This document shows, in pieces, positions 3,394 to 33,442 of a DNA stretch of 64,000 nucleotides. The notes beneath the pieces were generated by a model, which was not told the DNA's origin, made no database searches, and was given only the letters and a program-made list of their open reading frames with translations. Both the position numbers and the translations under genes were made by a program. Source of the DNA: Escherichia phage vB_EcoM_VR26; the sequence record NC_028957.1; one strand, given 5' to 3'. The number at the start of each line of letters is the position of its first letter. The stretch's first letter is position 1.

Positions 3394-4968
3394 ATGGCAG
3401 GTTTTAATACAATACTAAATTTTCTTAAGCCTTGGGCTAAAGAAGATGAACAAGAATATAAGCAACAAGAAAAAAATAATTTAGAGTCAATGACCGGGCC
3501 GAAGTTTGATGATGGGGCTCGCGAAATTGAGTCACAAGAACAAAACGTCCCGTATAATGCATTGATGCAACAGATGTTCGGGAGCAACGAACCGGAAGTA
3601 AAAAACACCAGGGAATTAATTGACACATACCGCAACCTACTAAATAATTATGAAGTTGATAACGCGGTTCAAGAGATTGTGTCTGATGCCATCGTATTTG
3701 AAGACGGCAAAGATGTTGTAGCTCTTAACCTTGATGCTACCGAATTTAGTCAGAAAATTAAAGACCGAATTCTTGAAGAATTCTCGGAAGTTAATAACCT
3801 CCTTAATTTCGAGCGTAAAGGTTCTGACCACTTTAAACGTTGGTATGTGGATTCTCGAATTTTCTTCCACAAAATTATCAACCCTTCAAAACTTAAAGAA
3901 GGCGTTCAAGAACTTCGTCGCCTTGACCCAAGACAAATCCAGTTCATCCGCGAAATCGTTACACGCATGGAAAATGGTACGAAAATTGTTGACGGTTACA
4001 GAGAATATTTTGTATACGATACAGGTCATGAAAGTTATTGTGCCGATGGTCGTATATATGAAGCGGGTACTAAAATAAAAATTCCTCGTGCGGCAATTGT
4101 ATATGCGCATTCCGGATTACTTGATTGCTGCGGTAAGAATATCATTGGATACCTGCAACGAGCAATCAAACCTGCAAACCAATTAAAACTATTAGAAGAT
4201 GCTTTAGTCATTTATCGTATAACTCGTGCTCCAGACCGCCGAGTCTTTTATATCGATACTGGGAATATGCCGTCTCGTAAAGCAGCAGCACATATGCAAC
4301 ATATTATGAACACGATGAAAAACCGTGTCGTATATGATGCAACTACGGGTAAAATCAAAAACCAACAGCACAATATGTCAATGACAGAAGACTATTGGTT
4401 GCAACGTCGTGACGGTAAAGCAGTCACCGAAGTTGATACTCTCCCAGGTGCACAAGGCATGTCGGATATGGACGATGTTCGCTGGTTTAAGAACAACCTA
4501 TATCAGGCTCTCAGAATTCCATTATCTCGTATCCCTAATGACCAGAACAGCGGCGTTATGTTTGATGCGGGGGCGACAATTACTCGCGATGAATTGAATT
4601 TCTCTAAATGGATTAGACAACTACAGAATAAATTTGAAGAAGTTTTCCTCGACCCGCTTAAAACCAACCTTATCCTGAAAAAAGTTATTTCAGAAGAGGA
4701 ATGGGACAAGGAACTAAATAATATTAAAGTTACGTTCAACCGTGATAGCTATTTCACCGAAATGAAAGATGCAGAAATCATGGAACGCAGAATCAATATG
4801 CTAACGATGGCTGAACCGTTTATCGGTAAATATATTTCGCATCAAACGGCTATGAAGGATTTCCTCCAGATGTCTGATGAAGAAATTAATCAAGAAGCTA
4901 AGCAAATTGAATTGGAGTCCAAAGAGGCTCGTTTCCAAAACCCTGAAGAAGAAGAAGAGGATTTCTAA
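3394..4968 (+). CDS. 20: Portal vertex protein gp20
   Basis: 524 aa (same as T4 gp20); GGAG Shine-Dalgarno; conserved gene order. Confidence 0.95.
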
Positions 4969-5231
4969 TGGATGATTTATTTGAAGCCATTAAATCAAAC
5001 GACCTCGTAGCCGTTCGCAAATATTTTGCTGAAAACATTGGCCCAGTATGCGGTAGTTTGATTCAAGAACGTAAGATTGAAATTGCACGTTCCATCATGA
5101 TTGAAGGCGAAGAGCCTAAAGAAGATGATGAAGACGATAAAGATACCAAGGACGAGAAGAAAGATAAAAAAGATTCTGACGATGCCGATGAAGGCGACGA
5201 TGATGATGAAGACGATGAGGACGACGAATAA
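4968..5231 (+). CDS. 67: Prohead core protein gp67 (acidic C-terminus)
   Basis: 87 aa with poly-Asp/Glu tail; TAATG overlap with gene 20; T4 synteny. Confidence 0.8.
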
Positions 5232-13487: not shown

Positions 13488-15014
13488 ATGACACAAACTA
13501 CAGGTGAAAAAGAAGGCGTATTTTACGGTTATTCTCTTTATGATTTGAATAAAGAAAAACTAATAACTTTTGATGAATTACTTACGGGTATTCAAGGAGA
13601 GCCCGGAGAAAATGGCGATATTGGACCAAAAGGCCCTATTGGTTTAACAGGTCCTCAAGGACCGAAAGGTGATATCGGGTCAAAAGGTATTAAAGGTGAT
13701 ACAGGTCCTCAAGGTATTCAAGGGCCCGCTGGCCCACAAGGTCCTCAGGGAGAAAAGGGAGTCCAAGGTTTAGCTGGAGTCCAAGGCATTCAAGGACCAG
13801 TCGGCCACCAAGGAGTGAAAGGTGATACCGGCCCTCAAGGTATTCAAGGACCGAAAGGTGATACAGGAGCACAAGGCCCACAAGGTGACAAAGGCGAAAT
13901 GGGTCCGGTGGGTCCGGCTGGTCTAACATGGAAAGGAACATGGGACGCTGATGTAGAGTATTCTATAAATGAGGCTGTCGGATATGGTGGTTCTTTATAT
14001 TTCGCCAAAACAAAAGTTCCTAATGGCGAAATACCAACACCGACTTCTAACTATTGGGGTGTTTTGGCTACCGAGGGTCCACAAGGTCCACAAGGTCAAC
14101 AAGGTCTTAAAGGTGATACCGGTCCTCAAGGTATTCAAGGACCTGTAGGGCCTGTAGGGCCGCAGGGTATTCAGGGACCAAGAGGACTTCAAGGGTCAGA
14201 AGGTGAAATAGGACCGCGGGGTATTCAAGGGCTAAAAGGCGAAACTGGGCCCGCTGGTCCACAGGGTATTCAAGGGCTAAAAGGCGAGGTGGGTGCTCAG
14301 GGTCCTTCTGGTTCTCCTGGACTTACAGGACCAGAAGGACCTCGTGGGTTAACAGGCGAAGCTGGAGCTCAAGGACCTCGTGGTGCTATAGGTCCTATCG
14401 GTTTAACAGGTCCTATCGGTTTAACGGGTCCTCAAGGTATTCAAGGTCCGAAAGGTGATACAGGTCCTCAAGGCTTACAAGGTCCTCAAGGCTTACGAGG
14501 TATTCAAGGAGCTCCTGGAGTAAAAGGAGAAGCGGGTGCACAAGGTCCGAAAGGTGATACAGGAGCACAAGGTCCTATTGGTTTAACTGGACCTAAAGGT
14601 GATACAGGCCCGAGCCCTTATACTGTTTATAATTATTCTAATGTTGCAACTGGTTATGCTGAAATGGTTATGCCTGGTGTGTCATCAAACACAGTATTTA
14701 GACTTCGTTCAGTTGGAACTAATATAGAATATAGTGTTCTAAGTAAAGGCGGAGCTAATAGATATGTAGATTGGCACTTTTCAATTCCAAGTGTTTCCGG
14801 CAATACAGTAAGTACTAATAGCGGAACTAATACATTAACTCCTACAGGTAATTTTACTATTGTGGCGACCGCTTATAATGGACTAAGGGGATTTACAATA
14901 ACATTATGCGAGTGGGGTTCAAGAGCTATTGTTGATATCACTGTTTATCATCATGGGCGTTCGGGAGACACAACCAAAGCTGTGGCTATTCGTATGACTA
15001 CTACAAAATACTAA
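13488..15014 (+). CDS. Collagen-like triple-helix repeat protein with carbohydrate-binding-like insert and C-terminal globular domain
   Basis: 508 aa; two Gly-X-Y tracts (37 and 60 triplets) separated by a W.GTW....Y..N..V.Y.GS.Y insert resembling CBM5/12-type motifs; about 130-aa non-repetitive C-terminal domain; GGAGG Shine-Dalgarno. Confidence 0.85.
   Translation: MTQTTGEKEGVFYGYSLYDLNKEKLITFDELLTGIQGEPGENGDIGPKGPIGLTGPQGPKGDIGSKGIKGDTGPQGIQGPAGPQGPQGEKGVQGLAGVQGIQGPVGHQGVKGDTGPQGIQGPKGDTGAQGPQGDKGEMGPVGPAGLTWKGTWDADVEYSINEAVGYGGSLYFAKTKVPNGEIPTPTSNYWGVLATEGPQGPQGQQGLKGDTGPQGIQGPVGPVGPQGIQGPRGLQGSEGEIGPRGIQGLKGETGPAGPQGIQGLKGEVGAQGPSGSPGLTGPEGPRGLTGEAGAQGPRGAIGPIGLTGPIGLTGPQGIQGPKGDTGPQGLQGPQGLRGIQGAPGVKGEAGAQGPKGDTGAQGPIGLTGPKGDTGPSPYTVYNYSNVATGYAEMVMPGVSSNTVFRLRSVGTNIEYSVLSKGGANRYVDWHFSIPSVSGNTVSTNSGTNTLTPTGNFTIVATAYNGLRGFTITLCEWGSRAIVDITVYHHGRSGDTTKAVAIRMTTTKY
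13596..13928 (+). repeat. Collagen Gly-X-Y coding triplet array 1 (37 triplets)
   Basis: Uninterrupted GXY repeats with recurring GPQGIQG/GDTGPQG units. Confidence 0.9.
14076..14615 (+). repeat. Collagen Gly-X-Y coding triplet array 2 (60 triplets, includes tandem GPIGLTGPIGLTGP)
   Basis: Uninterrupted GXY repeats; direct DNA repeat ggtcctatcggtttaac x2 near 14390. Confidence 0.9.
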
Positions 15015-31888: not shown

Positions 31889-32167
31889 TTAGTCGTTGGC
31901 TCTATTATATGCCACGTCTTCCAAAAGCAAATCCAGACGCTTATGATAAGTGAACACAAATTTCGTGGCACCGTCTGGTTTCATTTTAGTCATGAAGTGA
32001 ACATAAATGAACCCCTGCTCAACACATTCACGCCAAACGGGATTATCTTTAGTCGGATTAATATCAAACGAGTAATCATGATTCACATGACGAATAAACT
32101 GGTTAACATGACCATAATCCATCGTAGTGGTTGGACCACGGTCAGAAATAGTATGAACGACAAACAT
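31889..32167 (-). CDS. Hypothetical protein (30.1 position)
   Basis: 92 aa from internal ATG directly after upstream stop. Confidence 0.5.
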   Translation of the reverse strand: MFVVHTISDRGPTTTMDYGHVNQFIRHVNHDYSFDINPTKDNPVWRECVEQGFIYVHFMTKMKPDGATKFVFTYHKRLDLLLEDVAYNRAND

Positions 32168-32168
32168 A

Positions 32169-32987
32169 TTAACCCCTTCCACCAGTTGGTTGATTGTACC
32201 AGTATTCAATACCAGTACCTACGCGCTGACCATATTGGTATGGATATGCTGGATTATATCCAGGAGTCCATTGTTGACCTGGCTGCCAGCCTTGCTGCAT
32301 TTGTTGTTGAAGACGCCGAGTTTCACGAAACAGTTCTTCCAGTTTATGAAGTTCATCTGGTGTGAATTCTGGTTTGGTCGGTTCATCTTTGTGTTTCAGT
32401 TTAAGCTGTCCGGCAACATCGTCCCAATTAAAAACTTTGGAAGCTGTTTTAGGAATAGCATCACGTTCGCCACGAGCCATCCAATAAACTGGAACTGCAA
32501 GGATTTCACTCGCATGGTCGCAATGGTGAGCAAGGTCATCAATATAACAAATGACATTATATTTGTCTTTTGCCTTCTGGAACAACTCCTCTTTAGAGGC
32601 TGTATGACCACACATCATAACTTCTTTAAACGCACCAGGGAACAAAGCATTCAGGTTGAATTGACGATTCAGACGAGCATCAATGGAATCGCCCAGGGCT
32701 GTAACAGCCACAAAATCATATTGTTCTTTGAGGCTATTAATAACCCTTAACGCATCTGCATAAGGAGACAAATAACGAATAAAATCTGAACAGTTATATT
32801 TCTCAATCAACTGTGCGCCCAACTCTTCATCACAATTGAACAGTTTGCCAGGGGTCACAAATTTTTCATCCTGAATCATCTTAAGGATATGTTCCAGGGG
32901 TAAATTGTATTTTTGGGCGAAATAAGGCAAGCCAGACTGCCATGACAAACATACGCCATCAATGTCTGTTAAAATAACGGGTTTCAT
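32169..32987 (-). CDS. HAD-superfamily hydrolase-like protein with Gln/Tyr/Pro-rich C-terminal tail (30.2 position)
   Basis: 272 aa; N-terminal motif LTDIDGV (DxDG[TV] of HAD enzymes, as in 5-prime(3-prime)-deoxyribonucleotidases); low-complexity tail QQQMQQGWQPGQQWTPGYNPAYPYQYGQ. Confidence 0.55.
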   Translation of the reverse strand: MKPVILTDIDGVCLSWQSGLPYFAQKYNLPLEHILKMIQDEKFVTPGKLFNCDEELGAQLIEKYNCSDFIRYLSPYADALRVINSLKEQYDFVAVTALGDSIDARLNRQFNLNALFPGAFKEVMMCGHTASKEELFQKAKDKYNVICYIDDLAHHCDHASEILAVPVYWMARGERDAIPKTASKVFNWDDVAGQLKLKHKDEPTKPEFTPDELHKLEELFRETRRLQQQMQQGWQPGQQWTPGYNPAYPYQYGQRVGTGIEYWYNQPTGGRG

Positions 32988-33442
32988 AATGCATCTCTCA
33001 ATTGGTTAAGTATGTCAATAAATTCTTGTTCAGTCAATATTGTATCATGAACAGTAAGGTGGCTCGCCATCGAATGCTTTAAAACTTTGCCCTTTGTAGC
33101 TTGTAATGCGTCGCGGAATCCTTTGTTTTGGAGAGCTGCTTCAAAATATGCACTTGTATACAACTCTTTCCATGCTGCAGAGTATCTTGAAAAGGGAATT
33201 CCAAGCCAGAAAAGCGTCCCACGGTCCGCAGCTCTTGCATAAGCTCTTCCAGTTTGTTGTGCGACCAGCCCGGACATCCCAAATATACGTTTTTGTTGTT
33301 CATAATTTCTCACCTTGCACCCTTGGAGGAAGCCTTCAAGACCTCCAAACTGGATACCATCCATAACAAAAGGCCATTTGGCAAAGTTACTTAATGCACA
33401 TGATGGCCACGGGAAATTGCTTCTGATTTCTAACTCAGACAT
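32984..33442 (-). CDS. NADAR/YbiA-like domain protein (30.3 position)
   Basis: 152 aa from ATG; LSNFAKWPFVMDGIQFGGLEGFLQGCK resembles the NADAR SNF...F..DG...S.E..FQ..K signature. Confidence 0.55.
   Translation of the reverse strand: MSELEIRSNFPWPSCALSNFAKWPFVMDGIQFGGLEGFLQGCKVRNYEQQKRIFGMSGLVAQQTGRAYARAADRGTLFWLGIPFSRYSAAWKELYTSAYFEAALQNKGFRDALQATKGKVLKHSMASHLTVHDTILTEQEFIDILNQLRDAL

What the first reader, a model, noticed from the sequence alone, without database searches (positions are those of the whole stretch)
32169..32987. HAD-type hydrolase with an unusual Gln/Tyr/Pro-rich low-complexity C-terminal tail
The N-terminal 200 residues look like a HAD phosphatase or deoxyribonucleotidase (DIDGV motif), but the last 50 residues (QQQMQQGWQPGQQWTPGYNPAYPYQYGQRVGTGIEYWYNQPTGG) are low-complexity and aromatic-rich, unusual for a phage metabolic enzyme. 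It could mediate multimerisation or condensate-like assembly, or be a fusion.
Basis: seen in the sequence. Interest (0 to 1): 0.35.

Follow-up and report, generated by a model that had tools for sequence, protein, structure and literature searches.

The report
Phage phosphatase with conserved disordered tail
This is the T4 gene 30.2 counterpart of a T4-like coliphage: a predicted phosphatase with a real, selected, floppy C-terminal tail that ends in a short conserved peptide, probably a docking tag, so it is a modest lead and not a new kind of system.

Summary
ORF 32169..32987 (-) encodes 272 aa with DIDGV at residues 8-12 and the quoted Q/Y/P/G/W-rich end.

It is the orthologue of T4 gp30.2 (phrog_420, E 2e-78) in a Gaprivervirus-like phage. 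It lies between 30.3 (AdfN, a NADAR anti-DarTG1 enzyme) and 30.1/DNA ligase.

- **Core:** Residues 1-200 fold with high confidence as a capped HAD phosphatase, and all four catalytic motifs are conserved. No Pfam or NCBIfam model detects it, and the substrate is unknown.
- **Tail, reality:** The tail is not an artefact. Across six related phages it changes only by in-frame indels. Its dN/dS is 0.04-0.11 at dS 0.2-0.6.
- **Tail, structure:** It is not uniform low complexity. AlphaFold2 predicts a helix at 210-232, then about 40 disordered residues.
- **Tail, motif:** The Q-richness is lineage-specific. The anchors (W, P) and the terminal motif GxG[IV]EY[LW]xxQPT are shared with T4, Klebsiella and Enterobacter phage homologues.
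- **Distribution:** About half of the homologues have no tail, including close relatives with unchanged cores. Others carry different tails.
- **Best reading:** An accessory tether (helix, flexible linker, docking peptide), similar in layout to the bacterial SSB tail. The partner is unknown.
- **Alternatives:** Condensate formation is not excluded but is less supported. Fusion to a known domain is not supported.

Interest is modest.

The parts
32169..32987 (-). Gene 30.2 orthologue, 272 aa plus stop
   Evidence: ORF. phrog_420 E 2.1e-78. 96-98% aa identity to phages VR20 and TH15, about 66% to T4-type phages. Annotated 'gp30.2' in VR7 at the syntenic place.
32388..32987 (-). HAD-fold catalytic core with C1 cap, residues 1-200
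32952..32966 (-). HAD motif I, D8-I-D10-G-V12 (nucleophile and general acid/base Asp)
   Evidence: D8 and D10 are invariant in 69 and in 40 homologues. Coordinates checked.
32700..32702 (-). HAD motif II Thr96
   Evidence: At least 90% conserved. Lies at the end of predicted strand 91-96.
32592..32594 (-). HAD motif III Lys132
   Evidence: Invariant. The assignment to motif III is by position in the fold, which is an inference.
32535..32540 (-). HAD motif IV, Asp150-Asp151 (Mg2+ ligands)
   Evidence: Invariant. Lies at the end of predicted strand 145-150.
32361..32387 (-). Short linker DEPTKPEFT, residues 201-209
   Evidence: pLDDT dips here. The block mean is 62-68, and residues 200-203 fall below 50 in the second run.
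32292..32360 (-). Tail helix, residues 210-232 (PDELHKLEELFRETRRLQQQMQQ), amphipathic
   Evidence: AF2 predicts helix 210-232/233 with pLDDT 81-93 in two runs. Tail-bearing homologues of other classes show an amphipathic segment of similar pattern at the equivalent place; this comes from my reading of the tails and alignments, not from a separate test.
32220..32291 (-). Disordered aromatic/Gln/Pro/Gly-rich linker, residues 233-256, with conserved anchors W234 and P249
   Evidence: Block-mean pLDDT is 41-66 in the two runs, and residues 250-257 (run 1) and 238-257 (run 2) fall below 50. W234 and P249 (tail positions 39 and 54) are invariant columns of the tail alignment A2. dN/dS is 0.04-0.06.
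32184..32219 (-). Conserved C-terminal motif GTGIEYWYNQPT, residues 257-268. Family consensus GxG[IV]EY[LWY]xxQPT[AS].
   Evidence: E is invariant. G, Y, Q, P and T are at least 90% conserved in 15 diverse tails. Present in 19 of 116 cluster representatives, including the T4 type. It is the only match in the six-frame translation of the window.
32173..32178 (-). AAGGGG Shine-Dalgarno of gene 30.1, embedded in the last codons (GGRG) of 30.2
   Evidence: Sequence GGT GGA AGG GGT TAA T ATG. Relatives differ here by frameshift-type indels (GGRG* versus GGQGGN*) but keep AAGGGG. T4 has AAGGAG in the same place.
31889..32167 (-). Gene 30.1 (DUF3045), downstream and separated by 1 nt
   Evidence: PF11243 E 4.8e-18 with the match starting at residue 15 of the mechanical ORF. 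279-bp annotation in relatives.
32984..33442 (-). Gene 30.3 (AdfN, NADAR DNA ADP-ribosylglycohydrolase), upstream; its stop overlaps the 30.2 start
   Evidence: PF08010 E 4e-64. Function of T4 gp30.3 from bioRxiv 10.1101/2024.07.11.602962.

Best explanation
The gene is the orthologue of T4 gene 30.2 in a Gaprivervirus-like T-even phage. It is co-transcribed and translationally coupled with 30.3 (AdfN) and 30.1, upstream of DNA ligase.

**Core.** Residues 1-200 are a catalytically competent, Mg2+-dependent HAD-superfamily phosphatase with a helical C1 cap. Its most likely substrates are small phosphomonoesters such as (deoxy)nucleoside monophosphates. The substrate is inferred, not shown.

**Tail.** Residues 201-272 are an accessory module added to an otherwise self-sufficient enzyme. 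It has three parts:
1. a short linker and an amphipathic helix (210-232);
2. about 25 flexible residues rich in Trp, Tyr, Pro, Gln and Gly, with a few fixed anchors;
3. a 12-residue conserved peptide, GTGIEYWYNQPT.

**Proposed mechanism (inferred).** The disordered stretch acts as a flexible tether. The terminal peptide, together with the W/P anchors, docks onto a partner macromolecule. That would place or regulate the phosphatase in the infected cell. The layout matches the bacterial SSB tail, which has a variable disordered linker and a conserved C-terminal tip.

The final residues GGRG are dictated by the ribosome-binding site of gene 30.1, not by protein function.

**Confidence by step**
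- Real coding tail under selection: about 0.95.
- HAD phosphatase: about 0.85.
- Helix, disordered linker and conserved motif as the tail layout: about 0.8.
- Docking or tethering function in trans: about 0.45.
For: **Identity and context**
- phrog_420 E 2e-78.
- 1437 phage records match, and synteny is 30.3-30.2-30.1-30.

**HAD core**
- AF2 pLDDT above 90.
- D8, D10, K132, D150 and D151 are invariant, and T96 is at least 90% conserved.
- The motif-I region aligns with mouse cdN as DGVcLsWqSGL against DGVLADFESGL.

**Tail is real and selected**
- dN/dS is 0.04-0.11 with dS 0.2-0.6, and the only indels are in frame.
- GC3 is phage-like.

**Tail layout**
- Helix 210-232 has pLDDT 81-93. Residues 233-272 have block-mean pLDDT 34-66 in two runs with different alignments.

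**Position-specific conservation over a variable background**
- W, P and E are invariant, and G, Y, Q, P and T are at least 90% conserved, in tails that are otherwise only 25-34% identical and vary in length.
- The motif is shared by T4, Klebsiella, Enterobacter and Citrobacter phage homologues.

**Modularity**
- 55 of 116 cluster representatives lack a tail.
- Dhakavirus NC-G has the core followed directly by 30.1.
- No core position separates tail-bearing proteins from the closely related tail-less ones.

**Precedent for the layout**
- SSB combines a variable disordered linker with a conserved C-terminal peptide that mediates protein-protein interactions (abstract of bioRxiv 10.1101/797431, also held as PMC7584906).
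Against: - No partner is identified, and no experiment or complex prediction was possible.
- The motif occurs only in gp30.2 proteins, in the viral contig scan and in the window. So there is no evidence that it is a portable motif shared by several clients of one hub.
- Only 19 of 61 tail-bearing representatives carry this motif. The others end differently (..LRAYY....LLNKVTAND.. and others), so a single conserved partner is not guaranteed.
- Low pLDDT is only a proxy for disorder.
- The core has no significant sequence match to any Pfam, NCBIfam or PDB family. The HAD assignment therefore rests on a predicted structure plus motif conservation.
Confidence: 0.5

Rival explanations
1. Self-association or condensate formation. 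The uncharged aromatic/Gln/Gly/Pro stretch acts as a sticker-and-spacer, prion-like low-complexity domain. It clusters the enzyme into foci or a phage-induced compartment, possibly helped by oligomerisation through the 210-232 helix.
For: - Nine aromatic residues fall between 234 and 264, and there is a 29-aa run with no charge.
- The composition is the most extreme in the whole window.
- The T4 tail is also aromatic-rich and nearly uncharged.
- The preceding amphipathic helix could supply valency.
- E. coli SSB, which has a similar Q/G/P-rich linker, phase-separates (abstracts listed).
Against: - The low-complexity part is only about 40 aa.
- Q-richness is confined to Gaprivervirus. Klebsiella and Enterobacter tails that share the motif contain many K, E, D and R residues.
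- Conservation is position-specific (anchors plus a 12-aa motif), not compositional.
- The oligomeric state is unknown.
- No prion predictor was run.
Confidence: 0.17
2. Regulation in cis or between subunits. The tail folds back as a lid or pseudosubstrate on the active site. Alternatively it wraps a neighbouring subunit of a dimer or tetramer as an exchanged arm, controlling activity or stabilising the oligomer.
For: - The 210-232 helix is predicted with high confidence next to the core.
- The conserved Glu-Tyr and aromatic residues could mimic a nucleotide.
- From memory, untested here: 5'(3')-deoxyribonucleotidases, the closest solved nucleotidases, are dimers.
Against: - AF2 does not dock the motif on the core in either run; block-mean pLDDT over 241-272 is 34-57.
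- No core residue co-varies with tail presence. Close tail-less relatives with 74-81% core identity keep the same core residues.
- A monomer prediction cannot test the arm-exchange version.
Confidence: 0.2
3. Turnover signal. The exposed C-terminal peptide is a degron or adaptor-binding tag that limits the lifetime of an early phosphatase, which could become harmful once phage DNA synthesis needs dNMPs.
For: - The conserved motif is exposed, disordered and close to the C-terminus.
- The enzyme is dispensable in many relatives.
- Another tail class ends in ..TANDSD.., which resembles the SspB-binding part of the ssrA tag. This is recalled from memory and was not tested.
Against: - There is no match to a known E. 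coli C-terminal degron in this protein.
- The residues after the motif vary freely and are set by the downstream ribosome-binding site. That is atypical for degrons read from the extreme C-terminus.
Confidence: 0.1
4. Non-functional extension or artefact. The tail is translated junk produced by stop-codon loss or a sequencing frameshift.
For: - Tails are hypervariable across the family and absent in about half of it.
Against: - dN/dS is 0.04-0.11 with many synonymous changes.
- An identical frame occurs in six independently sequenced phages.
- The motif is conserved across genera.
- The alternative frames of the T4-type tails checked (L008, L033, L034) are full of stop codons.
Confidence: 0.03

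Closest known systems
Bacteriophage T4 gp30.2 (PHROG 420; 'uncharacterized protein in Gp30-rIII intergenic region')
   Same: - Orthologue: about 66% identity over 99% of the length.
- Same gene order 30.3-30.2-30.1-30.
- Same tail layout and terminal motif; T4 has GG[IV]EYLYNRPTSG.
   Different: - The linker here is Gln-rich (QQQMQQGWQPGQQW), whereas T4 has an Asn/Thr/His/Phe-rich linker.
- The extreme C-terminus differs.
- No function for gp30.2 was found in the searchable literature.
5'(3')-deoxyribonucleotidases cdN/mdN (NT5C family; PDB 2jao, 2i7d, 1q92) and the S. epidermidis dNT-like protein 3bwv
   Same: - Similar motif-I environment, DxDGVxxx[WF]xSG.
   Different: - Sequence similarity is not significant (E 0.44-0.72).
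- The Pfam scan returned no family at all at E up to 0.1, so no NT5C match.
- Other HAD IA enzymes score equally well.
- Those structures align only with the catalytic core; whether they lack a comparable C-terminal tail was not examined here.
Bacterial SSB C-terminal tail (intrinsically disordered linker plus conserved C-terminal tip)
   Same: A folded domain followed by a variable-length, variable-sequence G/Q/P-rich disordered linker and a short conserved terminal peptide. In SSB the peptide recruits partner proteins and the linker promotes condensation (abstracts listed).
   Different: - There is no sequence relationship.
- The SSB tip is acidic (DDDIPF, from memory), whereas this motif is neutral and aromatic.
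- The partner here is unknown.
- This is an analogy of layout only.
Prion-like / FUS-type low-complexity domains, including candidate prion-like domains predicted in phage proteins (PMC5694896)
   Same: Uncharged Q/G/Y/P-rich composition with regularly spaced aromatic residues.
   Different: - It is much shorter, at about 30-40 aa.
- The composition is not conserved among homologues, whereas specific positions are.
- In the passages of PMC5694896 returned by the term search, nothing refers to gp30.2 or a HAD hydrolase.
- PLAAC was not run.
Phosphatase domain of T4 polynucleotide kinase (PHROG 415)
   Same: A weak profile match over residues 74-163 (E 1e-3). Both are phage HAD phosphatases with a DxDxT/V nucleophile motif.
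   Different: - gp30.2 has a C1 cap.
- It has no kinase domain.
- The match is marginal.

Membership tests
T4 gp30.2 family (PHROG 420) | Significant full-length profile match | tested here: met
   phrog_420 E 2.1e-78, residues 1-268 against profile positions 12-264 of 267.
T4 gp30.2 family (PHROG 420) | Conserved position between 30.3 and 30.1/DNA ligase | tested here: met
   Neighbours are PF08010 (30.3) and PF11243 (30.1), followed by the ligase. Same order in VR7, VR25, T4 and NC-G.
HAD (haloacid dehalogenase) superfamily phosphatases | Motif I DxDx[TV] at the end of strand 1 | tested here: met
   D8-I-D10-G-V12 follows predicted strand 4-7. D8 and D10 are invariant.
HAD (haloacid dehalogenase) superfamily phosphatases | Motif II Ser/Thr, motif III Lys/Arg, motif IV acidic pair (DD) | tested here: met
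   T96 is at least 90% conserved. K132, D150 and D151 are invariant and sit at the ends of predicted strands 91-96 and 145-150. Assignment is by position; it was not checked residue by residue on a superposition.
HAD (haloacid dehalogenase) superfamily phosphatases | Rossmannoid core fold with cap insertion after motif I (C1 cap) | tested here: met
   [not shown]
HAD (haloacid dehalogenase) superfamily phosphatases | Match to a curated HAD sequence model (Pfam or NCBIfam) | tested here: not met
   0 Pfam families at E up to 0.1 and 0 NCBIfam families at E up to 1. A PDB profile search gives E at least 0.55. The family is too divergent for current sequence models.
HAD (haloacid dehalogenase) superfamily phosphatases | Mg2+-dependent phosphomonoesterase activity | not testable with these tools
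   Needs enzymology.
5'(3')-deoxyribonucleotidase (NT5C) family | Significant sequence or specific structural similarity to cdN/mdN above other HADs | tested here: inconclusive
   [not shown]
5'(3')-deoxyribonucleotidase (NT5C) family | dNMP substrate specificity | not testable with these tools
   Some database records call homologues '5' nucleotidase', but those are annotations, not assays.
Disordered linker plus C-terminal docking peptide (SSB-tail-like layout) | Linker predicted disordered, variable in length and sequence among homologues | tested here: met
   Block-mean pLDDT is 34-66 for 233-272 in two runs. Class A tails are 69-88 aa and 25-34% identical.
Disordered linker plus C-terminal docking peptide (SSB-tail-like layout) | Short terminal peptide conserved far above the linker | tested here: met
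   GxG[IV]EY[LWY]xxQPT has E invariant and G, Y, Q, P and T at least 90% conserved. This holds only in 19 of 61 tail-bearing representatives.
Disordered linker plus C-terminal docking peptide (SSB-tail-like layout) | Peptide binds a defined partner | not testable with these tools
   No partner was found. The motif is not seen in any other protein context.
Prion-like / low-complexity condensate domain | Uncharged Q/N/G/Y/S-rich composition | tested here: met
   29-aa uncharged run. The last 48 aa are 23% Q, 19% G and 12.5% Y.
Prion-like / low-complexity condensate domain | Length typical of such domains (about 60 aa or more; criterion recalled from PLAAC defaults) | tested here: not met
   The compositionally biased stretch is about 30-45 aa. 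PLAAC itself was not run.
Prion-like / low-complexity condensate domain | Composition, not positions, conserved among homologues | tested here: not met
   Homologous tails that share the motif are charged and not Q-rich. Specific positions are conserved instead.

The most novel reading that the evidence does not exclude
The gp30.2 tail would be a dedicated recruitment device. Its aromatic/proline-rich tether and terminal GIEY..QPT peptide would plug a nucleotide phosphatase into a specific hub of the infected cell.

Candidate hubs are the T4 dNTP-synthesising or replication assembly, or a host factor conserved in Enterobacteriaceae. The different tail classes in other T4-like phages would then be alternative 'addresses', evolving in an arms race or with the host.

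Given translational coupling to the anti-DarT enzyme AdfN, the enzyme might act in counter-defence, for example by removing a nucleotide-derived product or signal. It would then not be a housekeeping enzyme.
Probability: 0.15. Interest if true: 0.55.

Novelty: new member of a known kind. Interest (0 to 1): 0.27.

Why it matters
gp30.2 is one of many T4 early genes with no reported function, yet it matches 1437 sequenced phage records.

This work shows three things that turn an anonymous ORF into concrete experiments:
- It is a competent-looking HAD phosphatase.
- Its odd tail is under purifying selection.
- The tail ends in a peptide conserved from T4 to Klebsiella phages.

The experiments that follow are a pull-down with the 12-residue peptide, a comparison of tail-less and full-length enzyme, and substrate screening.

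Its tight linkage to AdfN, a proven anti-DarTG1 factor, makes a role in host takeover or counter-defence worth testing.

The finding itself is an incremental annotation. It is not a new type of system.

Tried and rejected
1. **Pfam, NCBIfam and PDB sequence searches with the protein or its family profile.** No significant hit. The HAD call therefore rests on fold and motifs.
2. **Profile of 15 tails against 1.84 billion representative proteins.** The only hit was a eukaryote-like 1286-aa repeat protein (E 2e-4), rejected as a low-complexity match. The search did not recover the gp30.2 family itself, so the negative result is weak.
3. **Degenerate DNA pattern for GIEY[LF]xxQPT.**
   - In IMG/VR: 6 hits, all gp30.2 genes in contigs of about 170 kb.
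   - In 185,579 prokaryotic genomes: 18 hits, none in Enterobacteriaceae, all in tiny non-coding ORFs or inside unrelated proteins, which looks like chance.
   - So there is no sign of host-motif mimicry or of a portable motif.
4. **Frameshift origin of alternative T-even tails (P0004, P0005).** Rejected. The other frames are full of stops and carry no GIEY remnant.
5. **Tail encoded as a separate ORF or as a remnant in tail-less relatives.** Rejected for Dhakavirus NC-G, where the core is followed directly by 30.1.
6. **Core residues specific to tail-bearing proteins (a cis docking site).** None survive comparison with close tail-less relatives.
7. **DNA tandem repeats or slippage.** None found.
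8. **Foreign origin of the tail by base composition.** Rejected. GC3 is phage-like, and the higher GC comes from codon positions 1 and 2, that is, from amino-acid content.
9. **A second AF2 run with a cleaner tail alignment.** The tail still did not dock.
10. **Literature.** No paper in the library mentions gp30.2. Papers on HAD-containing defence systems concern bacterial effectors, not this protein.
11. **The afdb50 fold library.** It was unavailable.
Full report
**Observation**

The ORF listing gives a 272-aa ORF at 32169..32987 on the minus strand.

The end of the protein is strongly biased:
- The last 48 residues are 23% Gln, 19% Gly, 12.5% Tyr, 10% Pro and 6% Trp.
- Residues 226-254 form a 29-residue run with no charged residue.
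- The best 40-residue window is 80% Q/Y/G/P/W/N. That is the highest value among all 101 ORFs of at least 80 aa in the window, above a collagen-like tail fibre at 75%.
- No DNA tandem repeat underlies it.

**Identity and context**

The protein matches PHROG 420 (unknown function) at E 2e-78 over its full length. By tblastn it matches 1437 phage records:
- 96-98% identity in Gaprivervirus phages (TH15, VR20);
- about 66% in T4, T2 and other Tequatroviruses;
- 46-50% in Klebsiella and Enterobacter T4-like phages;
- core-only matches (63-74% coverage) in Acinetobacter, Aeromonas, Proteus and similar phages, with only weak matches (28-33% identity, 55-69% coverage) in Vibrio phages.

The surrounding 6 kb is 92-96% identical to Gaprivervirus genomes. 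In VR7 the syntenic gene is annotated gp30.2.

Neighbours:
- Upstream is 30.3 (PF08010). The T4 homologue is AdfN, a NADAR DNA ADP-ribosylglycohydrolase that defeats DarTG1 (bioRxiv 10.1101/2024.07.11.602962). Its stop overlaps the 30.2 start (ATGA).
- Downstream, one nucleotide after the stop, is 30.1 (DUF3045), followed by DNA ligase.
- No paper in the searchable library mentions gp30.2.

**The core**

No Pfam or NCBIfam model hits the protein. Sequence searches of the PDB are not significant (E 0.44 with the single sequence, 0.72 with the family profile, both to cytosolic 5'(3')-deoxyribonucleotidase).

AlphaFold2 with a 69-sequence alignment gives pLDDT above 90 for 202 residues and an alternating strand/helix pattern.

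The model matches HAD-superfamily structures:
- Foldseek against PDB: E 2e-8 to B. subtilis YfnB, 3e-8 to mouse cdN and 1e-7 to a staphylococcal deoxyribonucleotidase-like protein, all at probability 1.00.
- BFVD: the nearest non-orthologous viral models are phage HAD and '5' nucleotidase' proteins.

The four HAD motifs are conserved. D8 and D10 (DxDxV), K132 and D150-D151 are invariant, and T96 is at least 90% conserved, across 69 homologues and 40 homologues.

**The tail is real and under selection**

Six Gaprivervirus orthologues carry the same tail. The only length changes are in frame: a Gln-Arg deletion in VR7 and VR25, and GGRG against GGQGGN at the very end.

| Region | Nei-Gojobori dN/dS vs the window gene |
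|---|---|
| Core, residues 1-195 | 0.02-0.05 |
| Tail, residues 196-272 | 0.06-0.11 |
| Low-complexity part, residues 225-272 | 0.04-0.06 |

The low-complexity value rests on 5.5-12.5 synonymous against 1.5-2.5 nonsynonymous differences, at dS 0.2-0.6. The counts are small but consistent in every pair.

Third-position GC of the tail (0.27) is as AT-rich as the rest of the phage. The higher overall GC comes from codon positions 1 and 2, that is, from Gly, Pro, Gln and Trp content. A frame error, junk translation and recent foreign origin are all rejected.

**Anatomy of the tail**

Two AlphaFold2 runs agree. One used all tail types. The other used only motif-sharing and tail-less homologues, so that the tails align cleanly.

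| Residues | Prediction |
|---|---|
| 201-209 | low-confidence linker |
| 210-232/233 | helix, pLDDT 81-93 |
| 233-272 | no confident structure (block-mean pLDDT 34-66), apart from a four-residue helical turn at EYWY |

So the 'tail' is an amphipathic helix followed by about 40 disordered residues.

**Comparison with homologues**

There are 116 sequences: the query plus 115 cluster representatives. Fifty-five end within 30 residues of the core, and 61 have tails of 30-148 residues. The post-helix part of the tails is 11-17% Pro, against 4% in the cores.

By terminal motif the tails fall into several classes:
- Class A (19 members): GxG[IV]EY[LWY]xxQPT[AS]. It includes the query, T4 and the Klebsiella, Enterobacter and Citrobacter phage types.
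- A class ending ..L[RK]AYY.. or ..LRATF (14 members).
- A class ending ..LLNxxxAND.. or ..ALLGM.. (11 members).
- Seventeen others.

Within class A, tails are only 25-34% identical and differ in length. Even so, one Trp, one Pro and the motif Glu are invariant, and G, Y, Q, P and T of the motif are at least 90% conserved.

The Gln-rich, uncharged character is peculiar to Gaprivervirus. The T4 linker is Asn/Thr/His/Phe/Tyr-rich, and the Klebsiella-type linkers contain many charged residues. A looser W-x(1-3)-P ... P-[WYF] pattern recurs in 41 of the 61 tails.

**The tail is a dispensable add-on**

- Dhakavirus NC-G has a 212-aa gp30.2 followed directly by 30.1, with no remnant.
- Tail-less proteins with 74-81% core identity to the query share every core residue that is otherwise typical of class A. 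No core position tracks tail presence.
- Divergent T-even tails (P0004, P0005) are not frameshifted versions of the class A tail.

**The extreme C-terminus**

The codons after QPT (GGT GGA AGG GGT TAA T ATG) contain the AAGGGG Shine-Dalgarno sequence of 30.1. Relatives differ here by frameshift-type indels but keep AAGGGG. T4 has AAGGAG in the same place. The functional protein motif therefore ends at QPT, and the last residues are set by the downstream ribosome-binding site.

**Is the motif found elsewhere?**

- It occurs once in the six-frame translation of the window.
- A profile of 15 tails searched against 1.84 billion representative proteins returned only an irrelevant repeat protein. 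That search did not recover the family itself, so it is a weak negative.
- A degenerate DNA pattern for GIEY[LF]xxQPT found six loci in IMG/VR, all gp30.2 genes.
- The same pattern found 18 scattered matches in prokaryotic genomes. None is enterobacterial and all look like chance.

There is therefore no evidence for a portable motif or for mimicry of a host protein. The tail is also not a fusion with any known domain.

**Interpretation**

Strong position-specific conservation of a short terminal peptide sits on a fast-evolving, disordered, variable-length linker, attached to a core that works without it in many relatives. That is the signature of a tethered short linear motif.

The best precedent for the layout is the bacterial SSB tail. 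There, a variable G/Q/P-rich linker precedes a conserved C-terminal peptide that recruits partner proteins, and the linker also promotes condensation (abstracts listed). I therefore favour a docking or tethering role in trans (about 0.45).

Rivals:
- Docking in cis or between subunits (0.2). AF2 does not dock the motif and the core does not co-vary, but oligomers were not modelled.
- Self-association or condensate formation through the aromatic 'stickers' (0.17). The composition here and in T4 fits. The shortness of the stretch, the lack of compositional conservation and the conserved motif argue against it as the primary role.
- A turnover signal (0.1).
- Non-function (0.03).

These are inferences. 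None was tested directly.

**Comparison with known families**

The gene is a member of the gp30.2 family (PHROG 420). By fold and motifs it belongs to the HAD superfamily, although it fails every curated sequence model. Membership of the 5'(3')-deoxyribonucleotidase family is inconclusive.

The tail resembles prion-like domains in composition only. It fails on length and on the kind of conservation. The resemblance to SSB is one of layout, not homology.

**Verdict**

The finding is an orthologue of a known but uncharacterised T4 gene. The added value is the recognition of a selected, disordered tail with a conserved terminal peptide, a feature I found described nowhere in the searchable literature. 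This is a useful, testable annotation lead but not a new kind of system. Interest is about 0.27.

Noticed in passing
window 32984..33442 (-): The upstream gene is the 30.3/AdfN orthologue (PF08010, E 4e-64). T4 AdfN is a NADAR DNA ADP-ribosylglycohydrolase that counters DarTG1 (bioRxiv 10.1101/2024.07.11.602962). Its stop overlaps the 30.2 start (ATGA), which suggests translational coupling of a proven counter-defence gene with the HAD phosphatase.
   Followed up: partly
window 32165..32183 (-): The last four codons of 30.2 (GGRG) contain the AAGGGG ribosome-binding site of gene 30.1. Relatives have frameshift-type indels here (GGRG* versus GGQGGN*) but keep the site, and T4 has AAGGAG at the same place. 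The extreme C-terminus is shaped by the downstream gene's translation signal.
   Followed up: yes
window 13488..15014 (+): A 508-aa ORF with long collagen-like Gly-X-Y repeats (GPQGPQGQQGLKGDTGPQG...). It matches tail fibre PHROG 5073 (E 2e-151). This is the second most compositionally biased protein in the window.
   Followed up: partly
window 4968..5231 (+): An 87-aa ORF with an extremely acidic Glu/Asp/Lys low-complexity C-terminus. It has the lowest sequence entropy in the window and matches a prohead protein family (phrog_1064, E 8e-25).
   Followed up: partly
P0021 (302 aa, Logan contig of 1378 bp): A metagenomic homologue in which the gp30.2 HAD core runs in frame, without a tail, into a 30.1/DUF3045 domain. 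It is either a natural gene fusion that hints at a functional link between 30.2 and 30.1, or an assembly or stop-codon artefact.
   Followed up: no
P0063, P0065 (Yersinia phage phiR1-RT type) and P0094: Other family members carry quite different C-terminal extensions. One type is about 110 aa and looks ordered, with no Pro/aromatic bias. Another is 148 aa and ends in a Cys-rich cluster (CVGC...CGGAPWCCP). The C-terminus of gp30.2 is a hot spot for acquiring new modules.
   Followed up: no
P0036-P0041, P0048, P0057, P0059 (Erwinia phage-like tails): A second tail class ends in ..[DE]Y.LLNKVTANDSD... The 'AND' part recalls, from memory, the SspB-binding AANDENY segment of the ssrA degradation tag. 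It may also be a distant variant of the EYLxxQPTA motif. Neither idea was tested.
   Followed up: no
window 33079..33303 (-): A 74-aa ORF nested out of frame inside 30.3 corresponds to the gene annotated 30.3' in VR7 and VR25. Whether it is expressed was not examined.
   Followed up: no
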